From Chitinophagales bacterium (GTDB lineage: Bacteria; Bacteroidota; Bacteroidia; Chitinophagales; LD1), in contig JAXLUN010000006.1 of NCBI GenBank assembly GCA_046329535.1, positions 72,429 to 136,428 on the forward strand: 64,000 nt of DNA, in the 5' to 3' direction. Made by a program: the position numbers and the translations under genes. Below, piece after piece: positions 16,591 to 24,436 of this stretch; position 1 is the first letter of the stretch; each line of letters starts with the position of its first letter. The notes beneath the pieces are model-generated. The model saw nothing but the letters and a program-made list of their open reading frames with translations. It searched no databases and had not been told where the DNA came from.

Positions 16591-17313
16591 TTATTGGCTA
16601 TACAGATTTCTGATAACAACACTGGCACAGGTAATTCCAAATATGGCCGGCATATATGAAATAGTTCCGATGATTGATTTTTTAGTTGATCCTTCCGGGG
16701 CTAAAATCACTTTGCTTTTATCAGCCTGTTCTGTAGATGAAACAACCTGTATGCCTTCATAAATACCCAAACGGTGTAATCTTTTTCTTACGTAGTAGGC
16801 AAGATGGCAATTGTAGGTTTTTGATATGTCTGTTACTCTAACTCGCAAAGGGTCTACTTTTCCTCCGGCACCCATTGAGCTTACAATAGGTATTTTGTTG
16901 TCCAGACAGGCTTTGATAAAGAACACTTTAGGTGTAAGAGTATCAATGCAATCAACCGCGTAGTCAAATCTTGTTGACTCAACTATCCCTTCCACTTTAG
17001 GTCCTTTGAGGTATTCAGATATGATGGTTAAATCAATATCCGGGTTTACATCTCTGATACGTTCTCCCATAACCGTTGCTTTCAGTTTGCCCTCTGTTGA
17101 TCTTAAGGCTGGCACCTGACGGTTTCTATTACTGGCTTCAATATCATCTCCATCTACAATGGTCATTTTGCCTACACCCGCCCGAGCAATCATCTCGGCA
17201 CAGATACCTCCAACCCCACCCAACCCGACTACTAATACGTGAGCATCTCGTAGCTTGTCAATTTTTTCGGCACCCAGTAATAATTCTGTTCGCGACATCC
17301 AGTGTGGAATCAT
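16591..17313 (-). CDS. tcdA: tRNA threonylcarbamoyladenosine dehydratase (ThiF/E1-like)
   Basis: 240 aa. It contains VLVVGLGGVGGICAEMIARAGVGKMTIVDGDDIEASNRNRQ. Confidence 0.85.
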   Translation of the reverse strand: MIPHWMSRTELLLGAEKIDKLRDAHVLVVGLGGVGGICAEMIARAGVGKMTIVDGDDIEASNRNRQVPALRSTEGKLKATVMGERIRDVNPDIDLTIISEYLKGPKVEGIVESTRFDYAVDCIDTLTPKVFFIKACLDNKIPIVSSMGAGGKVDPLRVRVTDISKTYNCHLAYYVRKRLHRLGIYEGIQVVSSTEQADKSKVILAPEGSTKKSIIGTISYMPAIFGITCASVVIRNLYSQ

Positions 17314-17404: not shown

Positions 17405-17423
17405 ATTTAGATTTAATCTAAAT
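17405..17423. promoter_or_regulatory. perfect 9+1+9 palindrome ATTTAGATTtAATCTAAAT (candidate operator 1)
   Basis: Read directly from the sequence. It lies 3 nt upstream of the -33 TTTG box. Confidence 0.4.
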
Positions 17424-17426
17424 AAG

Positions 17427-17457
17427 TTTGGATAATTGCCGTTGGCATATAGATTTG
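17427..17457 (+). promoter_or_regulatory. Bacteroidota sigma-A type promoter (TTTG-N19-TAGATTTG) for the DUF4856 operon
   Basis: TTTG at 17427-17430 and TAnnTTTG at 17450-17457, with a 19-nt spacer. ATG is at 17503. Confidence 0.45.
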
Positions 17458-17469
17458 CATAAAATTATT

Positions 17470-17488
17470 ATTTAGAAACAATCTAAAC
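17470..17488. promoter_or_regulatory. second copy of the palindrome, ATTTAGAaacaaTCTAAAC (candidate operator 2)
   Basis: Same ATTTAGA-N5-TCTAAA(T/C) architecture as site 1. It lies in the predicted 5' leader. Confidence 0.35.
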
Positions 17489-17502: not shown

Positions 17503-18552
17503 ATGAAAAAACTGATTGCTATTACTTTTATCTTTTGCATTTTTCTAACTTTTCAGTCTTGTAAAAAAGATGCGAATAGTTATGATGTTCCAACAACTTA
17601 TAACTTCACTGATGTTGATTATAGCGGTCAAAAAATAAGGCTAGCTATGATTAACGAACTAGTGGCCGCAGTAAAAGCAGGAAGTACAGCTGGAACTATG
17701 CTGAATGCTCTGACTTTAAGAAATATGTATACCAACACAGGTAATCCATTTGTAAATGATACGCTGAACACTTCCGGTAAACAATTGAAGGATAAAACAT
17801 TTCCTGCAGATCAGACAACTATTGAGGCATGGATAGATAATGCCGCTTTAGCCAGTCAGGCAGGAGTTGCAGGTTCAAATGGTATTGCGGGTATTGTAAC
17901 CAGTGGAACCAAAGCATACTTGCTGGATGAAAACGGATTTGAGTATAAAGAAGGTGTGGAGAAGCATTTGCAGGGAGCATTGATATACTATCAAATGACA
18001 GCGGTTTATTTAAGCGAGGATAAAGTAGGTGCTCAGGTTGCTCTTGCAGACCGTCAACATTACTGGGATGAGGCTTTCGGTTATTATGGTGTACCTGTCG
18101 ACTATCCAACCAACCCGACTGGTCTGCAACATTTGGGTAAATATGGAAATGACAGAAATGCTTTATTGGGAAATGGAGCTGCGGTGATGAATGCATTTTT
18201 GAAAGGCAGAGCAGCTATTAATAACAACGACCATAGTACCGTAACAGAACAGGTGGCAATAATTAGGGATAATCTGGAAAGGGGAGTAGCCGGAACCGCG
18301 GTACATTACTTAAATGAAGCATTGGCTAATATTGGTGATGATGCTATTCGCAGCCATACTCTTTCCGAAGGATATTTTTTGATAAAGTCGTTGAAGTATA
18401 ATCCAACTAAGAAAATAAGTGATACACAGATTCAGTCTCTCATGAATTACTTGGGTACTAACTTTTACACTATCACTACTACTAATTTACAAGCTGCCAA
18501 AGATATGCTTAGTTCTATTTATGGTTTTGATTCAGTAAAAGACCAGTTATAA
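17503..18552 (+). CDS. DUF4856-like lipoprotein
   Basis: 349 aa with a lipobox (TFQSC). YDVPTTYNFTDVDYSGQKIRLAMINEL resembles DUF4856 proteins, which precede imelysin genes in Bacteroidota. Confidence 0.65.
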   Translation: MKKLIAITFIFCIFLTFQSCKKDANSYDVPTTYNFTDVDYSGQKIRLAMINELVAAVKAGSTAGTMLNALTLRNMYTNTGNPFVNDTLNTSGKQLKDKTFPADQTTIEAWIDNAALASQAGVAGSNGIAGIVTSGTKAYLLDENGFEYKEGVEKHLQGALIYYQMTAVYLSEDKVGAQVALADRQHYWDEAFGYYGVPVDYPTNPTGLQHLGKYGNDRNALLGNGAAVMNAFLKGRAAINNNDHSTVTEQVAIIRDNLERGVAGTAVHYLNEALANIGDDAIRSHTLSEGYFLIKSLKYNPTKKISDTQIQSLMNYLGTNFYTITTTNLQAAKDMLSSIYGFDSVKDQL

Positions 18553-18558
18553 TTGCAC

Positions 18559-19632
18559 ATGCACAAATACAACTGTCTGGCTTTGATAGCCTTTTTTATA
18601 TTAATTAGTAGCTGTAAACCCGGTAATGGCGGGGACAAATTTGATCGTTCAGGTATGCTTACCAATGTCGGTAACAGTGTAATCATTCCGGCACATGAAC
18701 AGTTTGAGGTGGCCATCAATCTGTTTAAGCAGCAGAAAGATTCTTTCGTTGCTAATCCTACTACTGCCTCATTAGACTCCTTGTTGGGCTCTTTTCTTTC
18801 AGCCTACGTAGCCTTTATGAAAGTTGAGACATATAGTTTTAGTCCTTCGGGTGAATTGCGAAATCTGAATGTTTTTGCAACAGATACCACTCAGATTAAT
18901 GCCAACATAGTGTCAGGTGTTTATGATTTAAACGCGGCTAATAATATTACTGCCAAAGGATTCCCGGCTATTGATTACTTATTATTCAGCCGTAACAGCA
19001 CAGAAACTGTCAGCTTGTTTACTACTGATGCTAATGCCAGTAAAAGGATTCAATATCTGGATAACTTAACCAGCGAAGTGGAAACAGTTGCGGTAAGTTC
19101 TGCCAATGCGTGGAGTAATTATTTGCCACAGTTTATCACTGCCTCAGGAACTGACGTAGGAAGTTCTGTAGGCATGTTAGTGAATGATATTTCTTTTCAG
19201 GTAGAGAGATGCAGAAGAGATAGAGTTGGAAATTCTCTAGGCTATATAGGTTTTGTTTCATCAGGAAATACAGACCCGCATTTGCTGGAAGGCTGTTATG
19301 TAAATTACTCTAAAGAGCTTTTACTGGCCAATCTGAGAGAGTTGAAAAACTTATATGAAGGAGGGGCTGGTAGTGGTTTTGATGACTACCTAGTATACCT
19401 GAACGCAGATTACAACGGTCAACCTCTTGCTCCGGCCATTTCTGCTCAGTTTGATTTAGTGATATTGAAGGCACAGAATGTCCCTGTAGATTTTTTAACT
19501 GCATTAAATACGCACAAACCAGAAATGGAATCACTCTTTCTGGAGTTAAAAAAGCTAACCGTTATGCTGAAAGTAGATATGAGCTCACAACTGGGAGTAA
19601 TTATCAATTATAGCGACAACGATGGTGACTAA
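18559..19632 (+). CDS. imelysin-family (peptidase M75-like / IrpA-like) lipoprotein
   Basis: ATG is 6 nt after the upstream stop. It has a lipobox (LISSC) and a four-helix-bundle-type sequence with GFPAIDYLLF. Confidence 0.7.
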   Translation: MHKYNCLALIAFFILISSCKPGNGGDKFDRSGMLTNVGNSVIIPAHEQFEVAINLFKQQKDSFVANPTTASLDSLLGSFLSAYVAFMKVETYSFSPSGELRNLNVFATDTTQINANIVSGVYDLNAANNITAKGFPAIDYLLFSRNSTETVSLFTTDANASKRIQYLDNLTSEVETVAVSSANAWSNYLPQFITASGTDVGSSVGMLVNDISFQVERCRRDRVGNSLGYIGFVSSGNTDPHLLEGCYVNYSKELLLANLRELKNLYEGGAGSGFDDYLVYLNADYNGQPLAPAISAQFDLVILKAQNVPVDFLTALNTHKPEMESLFLELKKLTVMLKVDMSSQLGVIINYSDNDGD

Positions 19633-20905
19633 CAGACTCAAGTCTTTTCTGTTTAAACAAGTTTCAGGGGCTCCGCTTATTGTCTTTCGGATTGCTTTCG
19701 GTATCATGATGTTTTTATCTCTTTTGCGATTTACGGCTAAGGGATGGGTTAGCATGCTTTACATTCAGCCCAAATTCTTTTTTACTTACTATGGTTTTGA
19801 GTGGGTAAAACCGCTGGATTCTACCGGTATATATATTGTATTCTCAGTTATGATGTTGGCTACATTGTTTATAGCAGCAGGGTTTCTTTATCGTATCAGT
19901 GCCCTTACCTTTTTTATACTTTTTACTTATGTAGAGTTGCTGGATAAAACCAATTATCTCAATCATTACTATTTTATTAGTATCATCAGTATGCTTCTTT
20001 GTTTTTTGCCGGCCACCAAGAGAATAGTACCAAGATGGGCTATTCTAACCATCCAATTACAAATGGCTGCGGTCTACTTTTTTGCGGGTATTGCTAAAAT
20101 AAATACAGACTGGCTGCTGCAGGCTATGCCACTGAAAGTATGGTTGCCAACCCGTACGAACATACCGTTTGGTTTTTTACTAGATGAAACTGTGGTGGCA
20201 TATATCTTCAGTTGGTGCGGAATGTTGTTTGATGTAAGTATTGCTTTTTTTCTTTTTAATCGGAAAACGGTATGGTATGCTTATGGGGTAGTGGTGGTTT
20301 TTCATGTGCTTACTGCTACACTTTTCCCAGGTATAGGTATGTTCCCGTTCATTATGATTGTATGCGCTACTGTTTTTCTTCCAGTCACTTTTCATCAAAA
20401 AGTACTTAGCTTGTTTAACCAATACACTGGTGAAATTTCTGTATACTCTTCTGTTCTAAAAAAGTCTACTAATCAATATTGGATAGTATTTATTTTATGT
20501 ATTCACTTCACCTTTCAGCTTATTCTACCATTTCGCTATGTTTTGTATCCGGATAACCTGTTTTATCATGAGCAGGGATTCCGTTTTAGCTGGCGAGTGA
20601 TGTTGATGGAAAAAGCTGGTTTGGTTTTTTTTCATGTGAAGGATAGTAAGGGAAAGTTACATGAGGTAAGAAACAGCGATTACCTTACCTGCCAGCAAGA
20701 AAAGCAAATGAGTACTCAGCCCGATATGATTTTACAGTTTGCACAGCACCTCAAAAACAGCCTTCATGTAAATGAGGTATATGCCGAAGCTTATGTGACG
20801 GTAAACGGCAGGGGCAGTCAGTTACTGCTTGACCCGAAGGTAAACCTCTTAACTGTTCAGGATGGGTTTGCCAATAAAAAATGGATATTGGCGCGGACAA
20901 ATTGA
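19622..20905 (+). CDS. HTTM domain protein (vitamin K-dependent gamma-carboxylase homologue)
   Basis: 427 aa and multi-TM. It contains LIVFRIAFGIMMF..., TNYLNHYYF and EQGFRFSWRVMLMEK...QPDMILQFAQHL. It overlaps the imelysin gene by 11 nt. Confidence 0.85.
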   Translation: MVTNRLKSFLFKQVSGAPLIVFRIAFGIMMFLSLLRFTAKGWVSMLYIQPKFFFTYYGFEWVKPLDSTGIYIVFSVMMLATLFIAAGFLYRISALTFFILFTYVELLDKTNYLNHYYFISIISMLLCFLPATKRIVPRWAILTIQLQMAAVYFFAGIAKINTDWLLQAMPLKVWLPTRTNIPFGFLLDETVVAYIFSWCGMLFDVSIAFFLFNRKTVWYAYGVVVVFHVLTATLFPGIGMFPFIMIVCATVFLPVTFHQKVLSLFNQYTGEISVYSSVLKKSTNQYWIVFILCIHFTFQLILPFRYVLYPDNLFYHEQGFRFSWRVMLMEKAGLVFFHVKDSKGKLHEVRNSDYLTCQQEKQMSTQPDMILQFAQHLKNSLHVNEVYAEAYVTVNGRGSQLLLDPKVNLLTVQDGFANKKWILARTN

Positions 20906-20907
20906 GC

Positions 20908-23349
20908 ATGAAAAAAGTTATTGTCAGTTTCTTATTGCTTTGGGTGGTAGGTGCTTTGCAAGCCAAGTATTACACTATCAGCGGAACGGTCAAAAACGAA
21001 ACTACCGGTCAGTCTGTTTCTGGAATTTCAGTCAGTTTAGATAAAAGTGGAGGTAAGACGCTGACAGATTCTATGGGCAATTTTTCCTTCCATAATCTGT
21101 ATTCAGGTATCTATCATCTTACATTCCGAAGTAGTTTTTACGAAAGAAAAAGCGTTGAGGTAAAAGTTGAAGGTGCCAGTGTAAGTATCCCTTCAGTATT
21201 ATTGAAACCGTTTGTACAGGAACTCTCCACTGTTACCGTTCAGGGCAATCAAAGTGGTTATGGAATAGCCCGGCTAAAAGCAGTAGAAGGCACTGCTATT
21301 TACGATGGCAAAAAGAATGAAGTAATAGTGATGAACGAGATGAACGTCTCACTTGCTACCAATTCATCACGACAAATATTTTCAAAAGTTCCCGGAATCA
21401 ATGTATGGGAAAGTGACGCAGCAGGCTTGCAATTAGGTGTGGCAGCCCGTGGTTTAGACCCTAACCGTACTTCTAATTTTAATACCCGCCAGAACGGATA
21501 TGATATGAGTGCCGATGCGCTCGGCTATCCGGAGAGTTATTATGTGCCTCCAGCCGAAGCTATTGACCGCATTGAAGTGGTGCGTGGTGCAGCATCACTG
21601 CAATACGGCCCTCAATTTGGTGGTATGCTTAACTATGTGTTGGCTCATGCCCCTATCGATAAAAAGATTGAGTGGAACTCGTTTACAACAGCCGGGGCCT
21701 ACAAGTTAGTGAGTACTTTCAACAGTCTGGGAGGCACAGTAAATGGTTTTAGCTATTATGGATTCTATAATTATAAACAAGGTGAAAGCTGGAGGCCCAA
21801 TGCCGGATTTAGATTGCACAATGCTTTTACCTCCGTAGGCTATAACTACAAAGACAAACTTCTATTCAGTGCGGAGTACACCTTATCCAGGTATCTTACG
21901 CAGCAATCGGGAGGATTGACAGATGCACAGTTTGCCGCCAGCGCTAAACAATCATTGCGACAACGTAACTGGTTTTTTACCAAATGGAATATTTTCTCTT
22001 TGAATATTAACTACAAACACAATGTGTTTCATCAGTTTAATCTTCGCTTATGGGGGTTTCTGGGGGCGCGTAATGCAGTCGGTTATCTAGGGCCCGCTAA
22101 CCGCATGGATGATGTTTCTAAAAACAGAGACTTAATAAAAGATAGCTATAGTAACCTGGGGGCAGAGGCCCGTTATGTTTGGAAGTATTACATACGTAAA
22201 AGTCTGTCCGCTTTGTTGATAGGTGGACGGTTTTATCTAGGGCAAACCCATAAGTCACAGGGTTTTGGCAACTCAGCAATTGCGGCTGATTTTAATTTTG
22301 TGAACGACAGTCTTACAAGTTCTGAGTACAATTTTCCGGGTATGAACATTGCATTGTTTGCCGAGAACTCTTTCAATATATCCAATAAAGTAAAAGTTAT
22401 CCCGGGAGTCCGCTTCGAGCACATCAGTACGCAGGCTCGCGGTAGTTATCGTCAAACAGTGAATGAAGTAGTTGACTCGGTATTACGAACTGAAGAGCGA
22501 TCTTTCAAAAGAAGTTTTGTTTTACTAGGGTTGGGACTTAGCTATCATGTTTGGAAAGGTACTGAGCTGTACTCGAATTTTTCTCAGAATTATAGGGGCA
22601 TTACTTTTACAGATATGCGCGTTGTGCGCATCAGCCAGTTGGTAGACCCCAATCTTCAAGATGAAACCGGATACAATTTTGATCTCGGCTATCGTGGTGA
22701 TGTAAATGGCTGGTTCAACTTTGATGTTAGTGGTTTCTGGTTGCAGTATAATAACCGTATCGGTCAAATTCAGGTGGTTGACAGTGCTTACAATATTTAT
22801 CGCTTAACCACCAACATAGGCACCACGCGCAGTATGGGTGCCGAGATATATGCTGAGGCAGATTTGTTTCAAGCTGCACATATATCTGATAAGGCAGGTA
22901 ATTTAGTTGTGTTCACATCATTGGGTTATACAAATGCGGTTTATATTAAATCTACGTTCAATAATGTAACCGGAAAATTTTTGGAGTTTGCTCCACCCGT
23001 AACCTTGCGTGGAGGCATTACTTACCGGTATAAGAAGTTTTCTACTACAATCAATGCCTCTTTTACTGACAGGCAGTTTACCGATGCCACTAATGCCTCT
23101 TTTACTCCAACAGCCGTCAACGGAGCTATACCGGCCTACTATGTCATGGACTGGAGTGCTAAGTATGCTATCAGGTGTTTGCAGTTTCAAGCAGGCATTA
23201 ATAATCTTACCAATAATATTTATTTCACCCGCAGAGCTGTTAGCTATCCGGGGCCGGGTATTATTCCAAGTGAACCTATTACTTTCTATTTCACACTTGG
23301 TATTAAACTCAACGAAAAACTGAGGGGAGATAATTTTGTCACTTTTTAG
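20908..23349 (+). CDS. TonB-dependent receptor with N-terminal CarboxypepD_reg domain
   Basis: Met at 20908 (MKKVIVSFLLLWVVGALQA) is 2 nt after the HTTM stop. It has plug motifs and a C-terminal beta-barrel. Confidence 0.9.
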   Translation: MKKVIVSFLLLWVVGALQAKYYTISGTVKNETTGQSVSGISVSLDKSGGKTLTDSMGNFSFHNLYSGIYHLTFRSSFYERKSVEVKVEGASVSIPSVLLKPFVQELSTVTVQGNQSGYGIARLKAVEGTAIYDGKKNEVIVMNEMNVSLATNSSRQIFSKVPGINVWESDAAGLQLGVAARGLDPNRTSNFNTRQNGYDMSADALGYPESYYVPPAEAIDRIEVVRGAASLQYGPQFGGMLNYVLAHAPIDKKIEWNSFTTAGAYKLVSTFNSLGGTVNGFSYYGFYNYKQGESWRPNAGFRLHNAFTSVGYNYKDKLLFSAEYTLSRYLTQQSGGLTDAQFAASAKQSLRQRNWFFTKWNIFSLNINYKHNVFHQFNLRLWGFLGARNAVGYLGPANRMDDVSKNRDLIKDSYSNLGAEARYVWKYYIRKSLSALLIGGRFYLGQTHKSQGFGNSAIAADFNFVNDSLTSSEYNFPGMNIALFAENSFNISNKVKVIPGVRFEHISTQARGSYRQTVNEVVDSVLRTEERSFKRSFVLLGLGLSYHVWKGTELYSNFSQNYRGITFTDMRVVRISQLVDPNLQDETGYNFDLGYRGDVNGWFNFDVSGFWLQYNNRIGQIQVVDSAYNIYRLTTNIGTTRSMGAEIYAEADLFQAAHISDKAGNLVVFTSLGYTNAVYIKSTFNNVTGKFLEFAPPVTLRGGITYRYKKFSTTINASFTDRQFTDATNASFTPTAVNGAIPAYYVMDWSAKYAIRCLQFQAGINNLTNNIYFTRRAVSYPGPGIIPSEPITFYFTLGIKLNEKLRGDNFVTF

Positions 23350-23473: not shown

Positions 23474-24436
23474 ATGAGTAAAGCTAAATATACGGCTAGT
23501 AAAGTTGAACTGCATTATTTTTTTCCTGGCGATTCGCATAGTATGGATGCTCTGGTGCGTAACAAGTGTGAGAGTGAGTTGCTGGCCATGATGAAAGAAA
23601 TATCCAGTATTACCGGTGCACGGTTACGCGTAGAAACTGAGGCTTTTAATGTAGGAGGGCTGGTTGAGCGTTTCGTACTTCACGCCAAAAATGAATTTCT
23701 ACAGGGCTTTGTTGCCGAAGTCCTTACACAGATTTTACCTCAGGAGGTAGATCTGGAAACGGTTGTAACCGAGGTGGATAAGCAAAGCCGAAAGGAGAGA
23801 ACTGAACAATTAAAGAAAGAATTAAAGGAGTTTGAAAAAGGATTGGCTGATGAGATTGATATGGAAAACGCTTTGGGGCTTTTTCATGATAATCTAAAAC
23901 TGATTAAGTTGAAATCTAACTTTTACAAACATTTAAACGGTTACGATAAAGTGACTAAAATTTCTGCCCAAATATTGGATAGTAATAATAAATCGCTCAA
24001 GAGAGCCACGGTTGTCAGTCATACACAATTTGAAAAATACATACTGAAAACGGATGCTTTAAAGCCGGAAACAGATAAGGTAGCCATGATTGAAATTATA
24101 TCACCGGTATTAAAAAGCGGAAACTATAAGTGGAAGGGTATATATGCCAAAACAGGTAAGACTATCAACTTTGCCATGAAAGATATTGACTTTAAAAACG
24201 AAGTGATTAATGATGGTGTGTTATTTAAAAATGGTACCGGTATTGAGTGTACGTTGGAAATTGGCCGAAAGGTGAATGAATTTGGTGAGATAGTGACTAC
24301 TGGCTATACAGTAACACTGGTAGCCAAGAAACATGATGGCAATACTGCTACCGAGACCAATCATGGTAAAACTGTTCGCAAAAAGAAAGAGGCTGAAAAA
24401 CAACAGCTCGATTTATTTGGCAGTCTGTTTGGGTAG
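23474..24436 (+). CDS. hypothetical protein (orphan), C-terminal QLDLF motif
   Basis: 320-aa ORF with no recognisable family. It has a central charged coiled-coil-like segment and a beta-rich C-terminal half. QLDLF is encoded at 24404-24418. Confidence 0.65.
   Translation: MSKAKYTASKVELHYFFPGDSHSMDALVRNKCESELLAMMKEISSITGARLRVETEAFNVGGLVERFVLHAKNEFLQGFVAEVLTQILPQEVDLETVVTEVDKQSRKERTEQLKKELKEFEKGLADEIDMENALGLFHDNLKLIKLKSNFYKHLNGYDKVTKISAQILDSNNKSLKRATVVSHTQFEKYILKTDALKPETDKVAMIEIISPVLKSGNYKWKGIYAKTGKTINFAMKDIDFKNEVINDGVLFKNGTGIECTLEIGRKVNEFGEIVTTGYTVTLVAKKHDGNTATETNHGKTVRKKKEAEKQQLDLFGSLFG

What the first reader, a model, noticed from the sequence alone, without database searches (positions are those of the whole stretch)
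17503..23349. Tightly coupled DUF4856 - imelysin - HTTM (vitamin-K carboxylase homologue) - TonB receptor operon
Four co-directional genes have junctions of 6 nt, an 11-nt overlap and 2 nt. This implies one transcript and translational coupling. Imelysin/IrpA-like proteins have been implicated in iron uptake, and TonB receptors import scarce substrates. The polytopic HTTM protein, however, belongs to the family of the eukaryotic vitamin K-dependent gamma-glutamyl carboxylase. It retains hallmark segments (FRIAFG, TNYLNHYYF, FRFSWRVMLMEK, QPDMILQFA). What an integral-membrane carboxylase/epoxidase-like enzyme does inside an outer-membrane uptake module is, to my knowledge, not established experimentally. 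Candidate roles are modification of one of the two lipoproteins or of the imported substrate.
Basis: partly seen in the sequence, partly recalled or inferred. Interest (0 to 1): 0.55.

Follow-up and report, generated by a model that had tools for sequence, protein, structure and literature searches.

The report
Iron operon with vitamin-K-carboxylase homologue
This is a real four-gene operon, widespread in Bacteroidota and probably switched on by iron shortage, in which a bacterial relative of the human vitamin-K-dependent carboxylase keeps its active site intact and is predicted to bind the neighbouring iron-uptake lipoprotein, giving a testable partner for an enzyme family whose role in bacteria is largely unknown.

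Summary
Genes 17503-18552 (DUF4856 lipoprotein), 18559-19632 (imelysin lipoprotein), 19622-20905 (HTTM plus VKGC lumenal domain) and 20908-23349 (TonB-dependent receptor) have junctions of 6 nt, an 11-nt overlap and 2 nt.

The same order and strand recur in about 70 of 80 related loci across Bacteroidota. No fifth gene is conserved.

Two 19-bp palindromes bracket the promoter and match the published Riemerella Fur box (17/19). Similar boxes precede sufB and an FTR1 permease in this genome, and precede the cassette in 62 of 71 relatives. In Riemerella the same four genes are induced by iron restriction.

The HTTM protein keeps the equivalents of human GGCX N159, H160, K218, W223, D263 and F299 in 80 of 80 orthologues. 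It lacks the C-terminal third of GGCX, where I recall the propeptide site to lie, and the genome has no VKOR.

The imelysin is IPPA-type and nearly always ends in DxDGD. A complex model supports HTTM-imelysin binding (0.77 against 0.00 for the best control), and the interface includes active-site residues and this tail.

The enzyme's chemistry here is untested. My best guess is that it acts on the imelysin tail.

This scan has already found the same cassette on other DNA, in at least 23 genomes.

The parts
17405..17423 (.). Fur-box-like 19-bp perfect palindrome ATTTAGATTTAATCTAAAT, upstream of the -33 element
   Evidence: Read. It matches the Riemerella anatipestifer Fur box ATTTAGAATTATTCTAAAT at 17 of 19 positions (PMC5609570). 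In this genome there are 2 perfect matches to ATTTAGA-N5-TCTAAAT against 0.06 expected.
17427..17457 (+). Bacteroidota-type promoter candidate: TTTG (17427-17430), 19 nt, TAGATTTG (17450-17457)
   Evidence: Read. The -33/-7 promoter type of this phylum is mentioned in PMC5609570. It is a consensus match only and was not tested.
17470..17488 (.). Second Fur-box-like site ATTTAGAAACAATCTAAAC, 65 bp from the first and 14 nt before the start codon
   Evidence: A similar pair of sites about 60-65 nt apart recurs upstream of the cassette in many relatives.
17503..18552 (+). DUF4856 lipoprotein (349 aa; lipobox ...FQSC, Cys20)
   Evidence: Pfam PF16148, E 2.8e-37. The AF2 model has pLDDT 94.7, is all-helical and has no clear solved relative. 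Residues +3 to +5 after the lipid Cys are acidic in orthologues.
18559..19632 (+). IPPA-type imelysin-like lipoprotein (357 aa from ATG 18559; Cys19) with a flexible acidic C-terminal tail ...YSDNDGD
   Evidence: Pfam PF09375, E 3e-19. The family profile hits PDB 3n8u, 4ecg, 3pf0 and 7xrx. It has GFPAID in place of GxHxxE, as IPPA does. The tail DxDGD is present in 77 of 81 orthologues. The tail has pLDDT about 52 when the protein is modelled alone.
19622..20905 (+). HTTM / vitamin-K-dependent-carboxylase-like polytopic membrane enzyme (427 aa)
   Evidence: Pfam PF05090 E 2.9e-63 and PF22777 E 1.3e-46. Human GGCX structures match at E 1e-26. Active-site equivalents are invariant in 80 of 80 orthologues. 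It is the only HTTM gene in this genome.
20908..23349 (+). TonB-dependent outer-membrane receptor (813 aa from ATG 20908; alternative ATG 20881)
   Evidence: Pfam CarboxypepD_reg, Plug and TonB_dep_Rec_b-barrel. The NCBIfam FecA and siderophore-receptor models match best, but below their cut-offs.

Best explanation
This is a Fur-repressed iron-acquisition cassette that spans the cell envelope.

Shown or well supported:
- Two Fur boxes bracket a Bacteroidota promoter.
- The invariant, tightly joined core is IPPA-type imelysin, HTTM enzyme and TonB-dependent receptor.
- DUF4856 is a looser front-end lipoprotein. In some genomes it is missing and a canonical imelysin plus a di-haem oxidoreductase sit next to the core.

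Supported by a model only: the imelysin lipoprotein docks on the periplasmic face of the HTTM enzyme. It covers the pocket that in human GGCX holds the substrate glutamate and CO2. Its disordered acidic tail (DxDGD-COOH) lies in that interface.

Inferred: the HTTM protein is an active enzyme that uses menaquinol and O2. Its target is the imelysin tail, most likely carboxylation of an aspartate. That would make a stronger chelating arm for iron brought in by the receptor, as GGCX makes Gla on secreted proteins in transit.

My odds:
- iron-regulated uptake cassette: 0.9
- physical partnership of HTTM and imelysin: 0.7
- catalysis retained: 0.75
- tail carboxylation specifically: about 0.3 to 0.35

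The confidence figure given for this explanation is for the whole chain, including the last step.
For: Regulation:
- The window's palindromes match the Riemerella Fur box at 17/19 and 15/19 positions.
- In this genome, sites with at most 1 mismatch number 9 against 2.3 expected. One lies 40 nt upstream of sufB, and a two-mismatch palindromic site lies 18 nt upstream of a cytochrome c-FTR1 iron permease.
- 62 of 71 related loci carry such a site within 350 nt upstream of the cassette, against about 0.05 expected.
- RAYM_09779 to 09794 (receptor, 'vitamin K-dependent gamma-carboxylase', imelysin, hypothetical) are induced by iron restriction and listed as Fur-regulated (PMC5609570).

Cassette:
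- Synteny holds in about 70 of 80 loci and there is no fifth conserved gene.
- The imelysin-HTTM and HTTM-receptor junctions mostly overlap or are under 20 nt.
- Variants lack DUF4856 but have a canonical imelysin plus DHOR beside the core.

Enzyme:
- The equivalents of GGCX N159, H160, K218, W223, D263, F299 and W399 are kept in 80 of 80 orthologues. The equivalent of Y395 is Y in 63 and F in 17, and it is F320 here. Residue roles are taken from PMC12647623.

Partner:
- The complex score is 0.77 against 0.00 for the best of 3 controls. That mark was reached by 58 of 80 solved complexes and 2 of 110 mismatched pairs. The three runs share at least 69% of contacts and the partner pLDDT is at least 85. 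My own alignments were used, so these counts hold only roughly.
- The confident interface holds HTTM 113-115, 236-241 and 361-362 (equivalent to N159/H160, F299 and R435/436) and imelysin 346-357.
- The tail is disordered when the imelysin is modelled alone and in the IPPA crystal (PMC3143127).
- DxDGD ends 77 of 81 orthologues.

Precedent: the bacterial HTTM enzyme MloH carboxylates an aspartyl residue (Law 2018, as cited in bioRxiv 10.64898/2026.08.19.745780).
Against: - No biochemical datum exists for any member of this cassette.
- The IPPA-type imelysin of Psychrobacter, which according to Xu 2011 sits in the classical di-haem-type operon (I did not search that genome for HTTM), also ends in TDGD. 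If so, the tail does not need HTTM to have a function.
- The protein ends at about the equivalent of human residue 502. It therefore lacks the C-terminal third of GGCX, where I recall the propeptide-binding region to lie.
- The window's own protein has F at the Y395 position, and the Y395A mutation impairs human GGCX.
- No VKOR was found in this genome, which is 95.7% complete. Only about 13 of 81 HTTM-positive genomes have one, against 62 of 320 negative genomes (my count). The classical vitamin K epoxide cycle is therefore not in place.
- From memory, the Leptospira orthologue had epoxidase but no carboxylase activity (Rishavy 2005; not checked here).
- The complex output does not say which imelysin residues touch the pocket residues.
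Confidence: 0.35

Rival explanations
1. Redox partner. The HTTM protein is a menaquinol-linked oxidoreductase. It changes the redox state of iron held by the imelysin's acidic tail (Fe3+ reduction or Fe2+ oxidation), so that the iron can pass to an inner-membrane permease encoded elsewhere, such as the Fur-box-bearing cytochrome c-FTR1 fusion. This would parallel the peroxidase-imelysin pairs of EfeUOB and the PA4370-4373 type.
For: - Xu et al. [quoted passage not shown]
- This genome has one imelysin but no DHOR and no DyP match.
- DxDGD resembles the start of an EF-hand type hard-metal loop (my knowledge).
- The same tail occurs in IPPA, whose operon partner according to Xu 2011 is a di-haem enzyme.
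- The predicted interface covers the quinol and active-site region.
Against: - No HTTM enzyme is known to do metal redox.
- The CO2-stacking Phe and the carboxylate-binding Asn/His are invariant, which simple electron transfer would not require.
- DHOR is not complementary to HTTM. About 31 of 81 HTTM-positive genomes also have DHOR, against 42 of 320 negative ones (my count). In several genomes DHOR lies in the same locus, so HTTM is an addition rather than a replacement.
Confidence: 0.22
2. Substrate modification. The HTTM enzyme uses its strong-base chemistry on the imported small molecule, such as an iron chelate or siderophore-like carboxylate. The imelysin presents this molecule after passage through the receptor, and the reaction releases or traps the iron.
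For: - The carboxylate and CO2 pocket is intact.
- MloH acts on a small-molecule intermediate.
- The receptor is closest to the FecA and siderophore receptor models.
- The imelysin caps the pocket in the model.
Against: - No biosynthetic or chelate-related gene is conserved near the cassette.
- The imelysin tail itself sits in the interface.
- Turnover for every iron atom would consume menaquinol as epoxide, and no VKOR is present.
Confidence: 0.12
3. The target is another protein of the cassette (DUF4856 or the receptor), and the imelysin is only a helper subunit.
For: - DUF4856 has an invariant extended N-terminal motif (VPxTYNF) and invariant His/Asp/Glu positions.
- It is co-transcribed upstream.
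Against: - DUF4856 is absent from functional-looking variants of the locus (L110 to L112).
- It is joined less tightly, with typical gaps of 50-100 nt.
- I did not run a complex model for it.
Confidence: 0.07
4. The HTTM protein is a catalytically silent inner-membrane anchor or scaffold for the imelysin, or the cassette serves a nutrient other than iron.
For: - The protein is a stripped-down form that lacks the C-terminal third of GGCX.
- The receptor scores below every curated NCBIfam cut-off.
Against: - Seven active-site positions are invariant in 80 of 80 orthologues that are only about 50% identical overall.
- Fur boxes are conserved upstream, and the genes are induced by iron restriction in Riemerella.
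Confidence: 0.06

Closest known systems
[quoted passage not shown]
   Same: Both have the HTTM domain plus the first lumenal domain. The alignment covers human residues 50-502 at E 1e-26. The catalytic base K218 with W223 and D263 is kept, as are the Glu/CO2 site residues N159, H160 and F299. Both face the extracytoplasmic side, where exported proteins pass.
   Different: The bacterial protein has 427 aa against 758. It lacks the C-terminal third of GGCX, where I recall the propeptide-binding region to lie. Y395 is F in this copy. No VKOR is present in the genome. The candidate partner is an iron-uptake lipoprotein with an Asp-rich tail, not a Gla-domain protein. Its activity is untested.
Riemerella anatipestifer RAYM_09779 to RAYM_09794 (Guo et al. 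2017, PMC5609570)
   Same: By annotation it is the same four-gene cluster: TonB-dependent receptor, 'vitamin K-dependent gamma-carboxylase', imelysin lipoprotein and a hypothetical protein. It is induced by iron restriction and listed as Fur-regulated. Its Fur box is nearly identical to the window's palindromes.
   Different: It is known only as rows in an RNA-seq table. No function, partner or chemistry was studied. I could not fetch those sequences to confirm that the hypothetical protein is a DUF4856.
Classical Fur- or iron-regulated imelysin modules (P. aeruginosa PA4370-PA4373, V. cholerae VC1264-1266, Leptospira LruB/di-haem oxidoreductase/imelysin next to a TonB receptor, EfeUOB)
   Same: These are iron-regulated and contain an IPPA-type imelysin without the His of GxHxxE and with the same C-terminal DGD. 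They are often next to a TonB-dependent receptor. Some Bacteroidota loci join a canonical imelysin plus DHOR directly to the imelysin-HTTM-receptor core.
   Different: None of the classical modules, as described in the papers I read, includes an HTTM protein or DUF4856. The window's genome has no DHOR and no DyP peroxidase.
MloH of malonomycin biosynthesis, and predicted HTTM + DUF5819 two-piece enzymes
   Same: These are bacterial HTTM enzymes thought or shown to keep vitamin-K-type carboxylation chemistry. MloH acts on an aspartyl residue.
   Different: They have a different context (secondary metabolism, or small membrane partners), no imelysin and no link to iron uptake. I made no sequence comparison with them.

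Membership tests
HTTM / VKGC superfamily (Pfam PF05090 + PF22777) | HMM matches above the curated cut-offs for both the membrane HTTM domain and the VKGC lumenal domain | tested here: met
   214.3 bits against a cut-off of 27.7, and 158.7 against 27.7. Human GGCX chains match at E 1e-26.
HTTM / VKGC superfamily | Quinol-deprotonation site: the catalytic Lys (human K218) with W223 and D263 | tested here: met
   K159, W164 and D204 are invariant in 80 of 80 orthologues.
Vitamin-K-dependent protein gamma-glutamyl carboxylase in the strict sense (GGCX) | Glu and CO2 site: N159, H160, Y395 and F299 | tested here: inconclusive
   N114, H115 and F241 are invariant. The Y395 position is F320 in the window; across 80 orthologues it is Y in 63 and F in 17.
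Vitamin-K-dependent protein gamma-glutamyl carboxylase in the strict sense (GGCX) | C-terminal lumenal region of GGCX beyond about residue 502, where I recall the propeptide/exosite-binding region to lie | tested here: not met
   The protein ends where the alignment reaches human residue 502 of 758.
Vitamin-K-dependent protein gamma-glutamyl carboxylase in the strict sense (GGCX) | VKOR in the same organism to recycle the epoxide (the vitamin K cycle) | tested here: not met
   PF07884 was not found in the own genome, which is 95.7% complete. There is no association across 401 genomes of the phylum.
Vitamin-K-dependent protein gamma-glutamyl carboxylase in the strict sense (GGCX) | Measured carboxylase or epoxidase activity | not testable with these tools
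   This needs an enzyme assay or mass spectrometry.
Imelysin-like superfamily (Peptidase_M75), IPPA/PA4372 subfamily | HMM match, relatives with solved structures, and an all-helical fold | tested here: met
   PF09375 scores 70 bits against a cut-off of 23.5. The profile hits 3n8u at 1e-33, 4ecg at 6e-22, 3pf0 at 5e-20 and 7xrx at 6e-13. The AF2 model is all-helical with pLDDT 91.
Imelysin-like superfamily (Peptidase_M75), IPPA/PA4372 subfamily | GxxxxE-type variant motif (His lost, Pro in its place) and a C-terminal DGD | tested here: met
   The window has GFPAID and the family consensus is GFPALD, against GIPGLE in IPPA. The tail DNDGD compares with TDGD in IPPA.
Fur-regulated iron-uptake operon | A Fur operator at the promoter and induction by iron restriction | tested here: inconclusive
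   The operator sequence is met. Induction is shown only for the Riemerella cluster. There is no expression or binding data for this organism.
Classical imelysin module (imelysin + EfeB/DHOR peroxidase) | A peroxidase or di-haem oxidoreductase partner gene | tested here: not met
   There is none in the cassette. PF06537 and PF04261 were not found in the own genome. Such a gene is present next to the core in some relatives.
TonB-dependent receptor | A Plug domain plus a 22-strand barrel domain | tested here: met
   PF07715 and PF00593 score above their cut-offs. Ligand-specific NCBIfam models all score below their cut-offs.
DUF4856 (PF16148) | HMM match over the full length | tested here: met
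   129 bits covering profile positions 12-356 of 358.
DUF4856 as a divergent imelysin | Profile or fold similarity to imelysin | tested here: inconclusive
   hhalign aligns only the signal peptides. Foldseek ranks 3n8u fifth at E 0.69. VIA-align gives only generic helical bundles with Z below 9.

The most novel reading that the evidence does not exclude
Bacteria carry out menaquinone-dependent protein carboxylation. On this reading the HTTM enzyme carboxylates aspartate(s) in the conserved DxDGD-COOH tail of the IPPA-type imelysin as the lipoprotein passes the inner membrane. This creates a malonate-type chelating arm that is needed for iron hand-off from the TonB-dependent receptor. It would be the first protein substrate of a bacterial GGCX relative and a new post-translational modification in iron uptake.
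Probability: 0.3. Interest if true: 0.85.

Novelty: new variant of a known kind. Interest (0 to 1): 0.63.

Why it matters
Relatives of the vitamin-K-dependent carboxylase are common in bacteria, but as far as I know none has a known protein substrate. Imelysin-like proteins are widespread in iron uptake, including in pathogens such as Leptospira, Pseudomonas and Riemerella, and have no known biochemical function.

This cassette ties the two unknowns together in about a fifth of sampled Bacteroidota species. It names a concrete pair, HTTM and the imelysin tail, that can be tested by a knock-out, a point mutant and mass spectrometry.

If the enzyme modifies the tail, Gla-type chemistry would extend from animal secretory proteins to bacterial metal acquisition. 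If it acts as a quinol-linked redox partner, it would be a metal-free alternative to the haem enzymes of other imelysin systems.

Tried and rejected
- **DUF4856 as a hidden imelysin.** hhalign of the two family profiles aligned only the lipoprotein signal peptides. The protein comparison failed, as did my first two hhalign runs. Foldseek and VIA-align gave no clear relative for a confident model. A PDB profile search found nothing.
- **A vitamin K cycle.** VKOR was not found in this genome and is not associated with the cassette across the phylum.
- **HTTM as a replacement for the di-haem oxidoreductase.** I rejected this. DHOR co-occurs with HTTM more often than not, and in some genomes it sits in the same locus.
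- **A fifth conserved gene** (inner-membrane permease, TonB/ExbBD or a regulator). None was found. The 320-aa orphan at 23474-24436 and the ThiF gene at 16591-17313 are not conserved neighbours.
- **Paralogous HTTM genes of Bacteroidota** (27-38% identity). They lie between ribF and serS or in other contexts, without an imelysin, so they say nothing about this cassette.
- **Riemerella B739_0173-0176**, the Fur-bound promoter of PMC7976709. This is a different cluster.
- **Sigma-70 promoter and intrinsic terminator scans.** Both were at chance level.
- **The imelysin tail as specific to HTTM partners.** I rejected this, because Psychrobacter IPPA ends the same way.
- **Association in other phyla.** I did not test whether HTTM and imelysin are neighbours outside Bacteroidota.


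Full report
**Observation**

Reading the junctions gives:
- TAA at 18550-18552, then ATG at 18559: a 6-nt gap.
- The HTTM ATG at 19622 lies inside the last codons of the imelysin gene, whose stop is at 19630-19632: an 11-nt overlap.
- TGA at 20903-20905, then ATG at 20908: a 2-nt gap. An alternative ATG at 20881 is open but gives a poorer signal peptide.

Pfam confirms DUF4856, Peptidase_M75, HTTM plus VKGC_lumenal_dom, and a TonB-dependent receptor with a CarboxypepD_reg N-terminal domain. All score above their gathering scores. NCBIfam names none of the first three. It places the receptor nearest the FecA and siderophore receptor models, below their cut-offs. The quoted motifs are in the translation. 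Both lipoproteins have a lipobox Cys.

**Conservation**

A scan of one genome per prokaryote species found at least 575 relatives of the HTTM protein. The best 80 loci all come from Bacteroidota in the GTDB sense: Chitinophagales, Cytophagales, Flavobacteriales, Pedobacter, Saprospiraceae, Balneolaceae and Kapaibacteria.

tblastn finds DUF4856, imelysin, HTTM and receptor in that order on one strand in about 70 of the 80 loci. Clustering every ORF of these loci gives four families, present in 79, 77, 73 and 73 loci. The next family is present in only 9. This is therefore a self-contained four-gene cassette in variable surroundings. Neither the ThiF gene upstream nor the 320-aa orphan downstream belongs to it.

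Across 69 loci the imelysin-HTTM and HTTM-receptor junctions are mostly overlaps or under 20 nt. DUF4856-imelysin is usually 50-100 nt (the starts were chosen by rule, so the values are approximate).

In a sample of 401 genomes of the phylum, 81 have a match. About 73 of these carry the cassette-type orthologue at 44% identity or more. Matches fall in 52 of 180 genera. The largest family of the sample has none in 87 genomes. The own genome has a single HTTM gene and a single imelysin gene.

**Regulation**

Another note on this window pointed to two palindromes upstream. They are ATTTAGATTTAATCTAAAT (17405-17423) and ATTTAGAAACAATCTAAAC (17470-17488). They bracket a TTTG-N19-TAGATTTG promoter candidate.

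The Fur box proposed for Riemerella anatipestifer is ATTTAGAATTATTCTAAAT. Purified Fur shifted promoter fragments carrying such boxes (PMC5609570). The window's sites match it at 17 and 15 of 19 positions.

[quoted passage not shown] They are listed among 17 Fur-regulated genes.

In this genome the pattern ATTTAGA-N5-TCTAAAT with at most one mismatch occurs 9 times against 2.3 expected, and perfectly twice against 0.06 expected. One such site lies 40 nt before sufB, and a two-mismatch palindromic variant lies 18 nt before a cytochrome c-FTR1 iron permease fusion.

Upstream of the cassette, 62 of 71 related loci have at least one site with at most 3 mismatches within 350 nt, against about 0.05 expected. 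Often there are two sites about 60-65 nt apart.

I take iron and Fur control as well supported by sequence and by the Riemerella data. It has not been measured for this organism.

**The HTTM enzyme**

phmmer aligns residues 5-422 to human GGCX residues 50-502 at E 1e-26. I took residue roles from the 2025 structure paper PMC12647623 and mapped them as follows:

| Human GGCX | Window protein | Role in GGCX |
|---|---|---|
| K218, W223, D263 | K159, W164, D204 | base that deprotonates the quinol, and its supports |
| N159, H160 | N114, H115 | hold the substrate carboxylate |
| F299 | F241 | stacks on CO2 |

These positions, and the W399 equivalent, are invariant in 80 of 80 orthologues that are only about 50% identical overall. 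The Y395 position is Y in 63 orthologues and F in 17. The window has F320.

The protein stops at about the equivalent of human residue 502. It therefore lacks the C-terminal third of GGCX, which from memory contains the propeptide-binding region.

VKOR was not found in this genome, which is 95.7% complete. Across the sample it is present in about 13 of 81 HTTM-positive genomes and 62 of 320 negative ones (my count). The animal-type vitamin K cycle is therefore not the design.

menB is intact. The menA region just outside the window carries stops in this assembly. Other notes report blocks of frameshifts in this assembly, so I draw no conclusion from this.

**The imelysin**

A profile of 36 orthologues hits the solved imelysin-like proteins: 3n8u (circularly permuted), 4ecg, 3pf0 and 7xrx. 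Its motif region is GFPALD (GFPAID here), with Pro in place of the His of GxHxxE. This is exactly the situation in IPPA (3pf0), which has GIPGLE, and Xu et al. describe it as the IPPA/PA4372 family.

77 of 81 orthologues end in DxDGD, and IPPA ends in TDGD. The last six residues of IPPA are disordered in the crystal. In an AF2 model of the window's protein, residues 345-357 have no secondary structure and the final block has pLDDT 52.

**The predicted complex**

- The score was 0.77 in the median run, against 0.00 for the best of three controls.
- That mark was reached by 58 of 80 solved complexes and 2 of 110 mismatched pairs.
- The runs share at least 69% of contacts and the partner pLDDT is at least 85.
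- My own alignments were used, so the counts hold only roughly. The score is the model's own confidence, not a measurement.
- My PDB searches with these three proteins returned only GGCX chains for HTTM and only imelysin chains for the imelysin, so I know of no solved complex of this kind and memory is unlikely to explain the pass.

The confident interface contains HTTM 113-115, 236-241 and 361-362. These are the equivalents of N159/H160, F299 and R435/R436, the residues that hold the substrate in GGCX. It also contains much of the lumenal domain (330-350, 391-400). On the imelysin side it contains the last helix (331-344), the tail (346, 349, 352, 355-357) and residues 27-30 just after the lipid anchor.

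The output does not say which residue touches which. The claim that the tail enters the pocket is therefore an inference.

**DUF4856 and locus variants**

The DUF4856 model is confident (pLDDT 94.7) and helical, but it has no clear solved relative. Its profile does not align with imelysin beyond the signal peptide.

Residues +3 to +5 after its lipid Cys are acidic in 68%, 47% and 32% of orthologues. From memory, this resembles the Bacteroidota signal for surface export of lipoproteins. It may therefore be the surface partner of the receptor. This is inference.

In some genomes DUF4856 is missing. A canonical imelysin (216 bits) plus a di-haem oxidoreductase (DHOR) then lie beside the imelysin-HTTM-receptor core, either divergently or downstream. 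One locus has both. DHOR is also more frequent in HTTM-positive genomes: about 31 of 81 against 42 of 320 (my count).

Two conclusions follow. The invariant core is IPPA-type imelysin, HTTM and receptor. HTTM is an addition to the classical imelysin/di-haem module, not a substitute for its haem enzyme. The window's genome has neither DHOR nor a DyP peroxidase.

**Mechanism**

What is shown is an intact, conserved, Fur-box-bearing cassette. What is modelled is an HTTM-imelysin complex.

My committed inference is that the enzyme is active with menaquinol and O2 and works on the imelysin's acidic tail, most likely by carboxylating an aspartate. The reasoning is:
- The whole carboxylation half-site, not only the quinol site, is invariant.
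- A lipoprotein in transit through the inner membrane is the bacterial counterpart of a secretory protein passing GGCX.
- A bacterial HTTM enzyme that carboxylates an aspartyl residue is already known (MloH, as cited).
- A rare modification would not need VKOR.

I put this at about 0.3 to 0.35.

The main rival is a quinol-linked redox step on iron carried by the tail, at 0.22. It is favoured by the same tail occurring in IPPA, which according to Xu 2011 belongs to the classical di-haem-type operon. Weaker rivals are modification of the imported ligand, another protein target, and a silent scaffold.

**Comparison and novelty**

The parts are all known families, and iron-regulated imelysin operons are known. 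The cassette itself appears in the literature I could search only as four rows of a Riemerella table. No paper holds 'imelysin' together with 'HTTM', and none holds 'DUF4856'.

It is not a GGCX in the strict sense: the C-terminal third of GGCX is missing and no VKOR is present. It is a new variant of the imelysin-type iron-uptake module, built around a GGCX-like enzyme.

This scan has already reported the same cassette on other DNA in at least 23 genomes, including the acidic tail and its predicted reach to the active site. My results on this window agree with those notes. They add the locus variants with DHOR and the negative VKOR and DHOR cross-tabulations.

Noticed in passing
L110:2520-11087 (-), L111:1955-9695, L112:1630-9314, L109:1523-10632: In some Bacteroidota genomes a canonical imelysin (PF09375, about 190-225 bits) plus a di-haem oxidoreductase (PF06537) lie directly beside the imelysin-HTTM-receptor core. 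In three of the four loci I looked at, DUF4856 is then absent. L110 also has a CCP_MauG di-haem peroxidase downstream.
   Followed up: partly
L089:4946-8423, L091:5152-8580, L093:4950-8348 and similar loci: A second clade of HTTM proteins in Bacteroidota (30-35% identical to the window's) sits in a conserved ribF (FAD synthetase/riboflavin kinase) - HTTM - serS arrangement, with no imelysin. Its role is unknown.
   Followed up: partly
own genome C10:263730-263832 (L086), outside the window: Four Fur-box-like sites lie in a row within about 100 bp, at starts 263730, 263772, 263793 and 263814, in the gap between a 192-aa ORF and an OsmC-like gene. I did not examine what they control.
   Followed up: no
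own genome C11:157722-159683 (L084:59-1984), outside the window: A 641-aa fusion of a cytochrome c domain with an FTR1 iron permease starts 18 nt after a palindromic Fur-box-like site. It is a candidate inner-membrane route for iron in this organism.
   Followed up: partly
own genome C12:140666-141413 (L101, L102), about 4 kb beyond the window's end: The best menA (menaquinone prenyltransferase) match is interrupted by several stop codons, while menB elsewhere is intact. This resembles the blocks of dense frameshifts that other notes report in this window, and it may be an assembly fault.
   Followed up: no
window 16591-17313 (-): A ThiF-family gene is transcribed divergently from the cassette and starts 92 nt from the first Fur box, so it could share the operator. 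It is not a conserved neighbour of the cassette in relatives.
   Followed up: partly
window 23474-24436 (+): A 320-aa ORF with no Pfam match lies just downstream of the receptor gene. It is not conserved next to the cassette in the 80 related loci, so it is not part of the operon's conserved content.
   Followed up: partly
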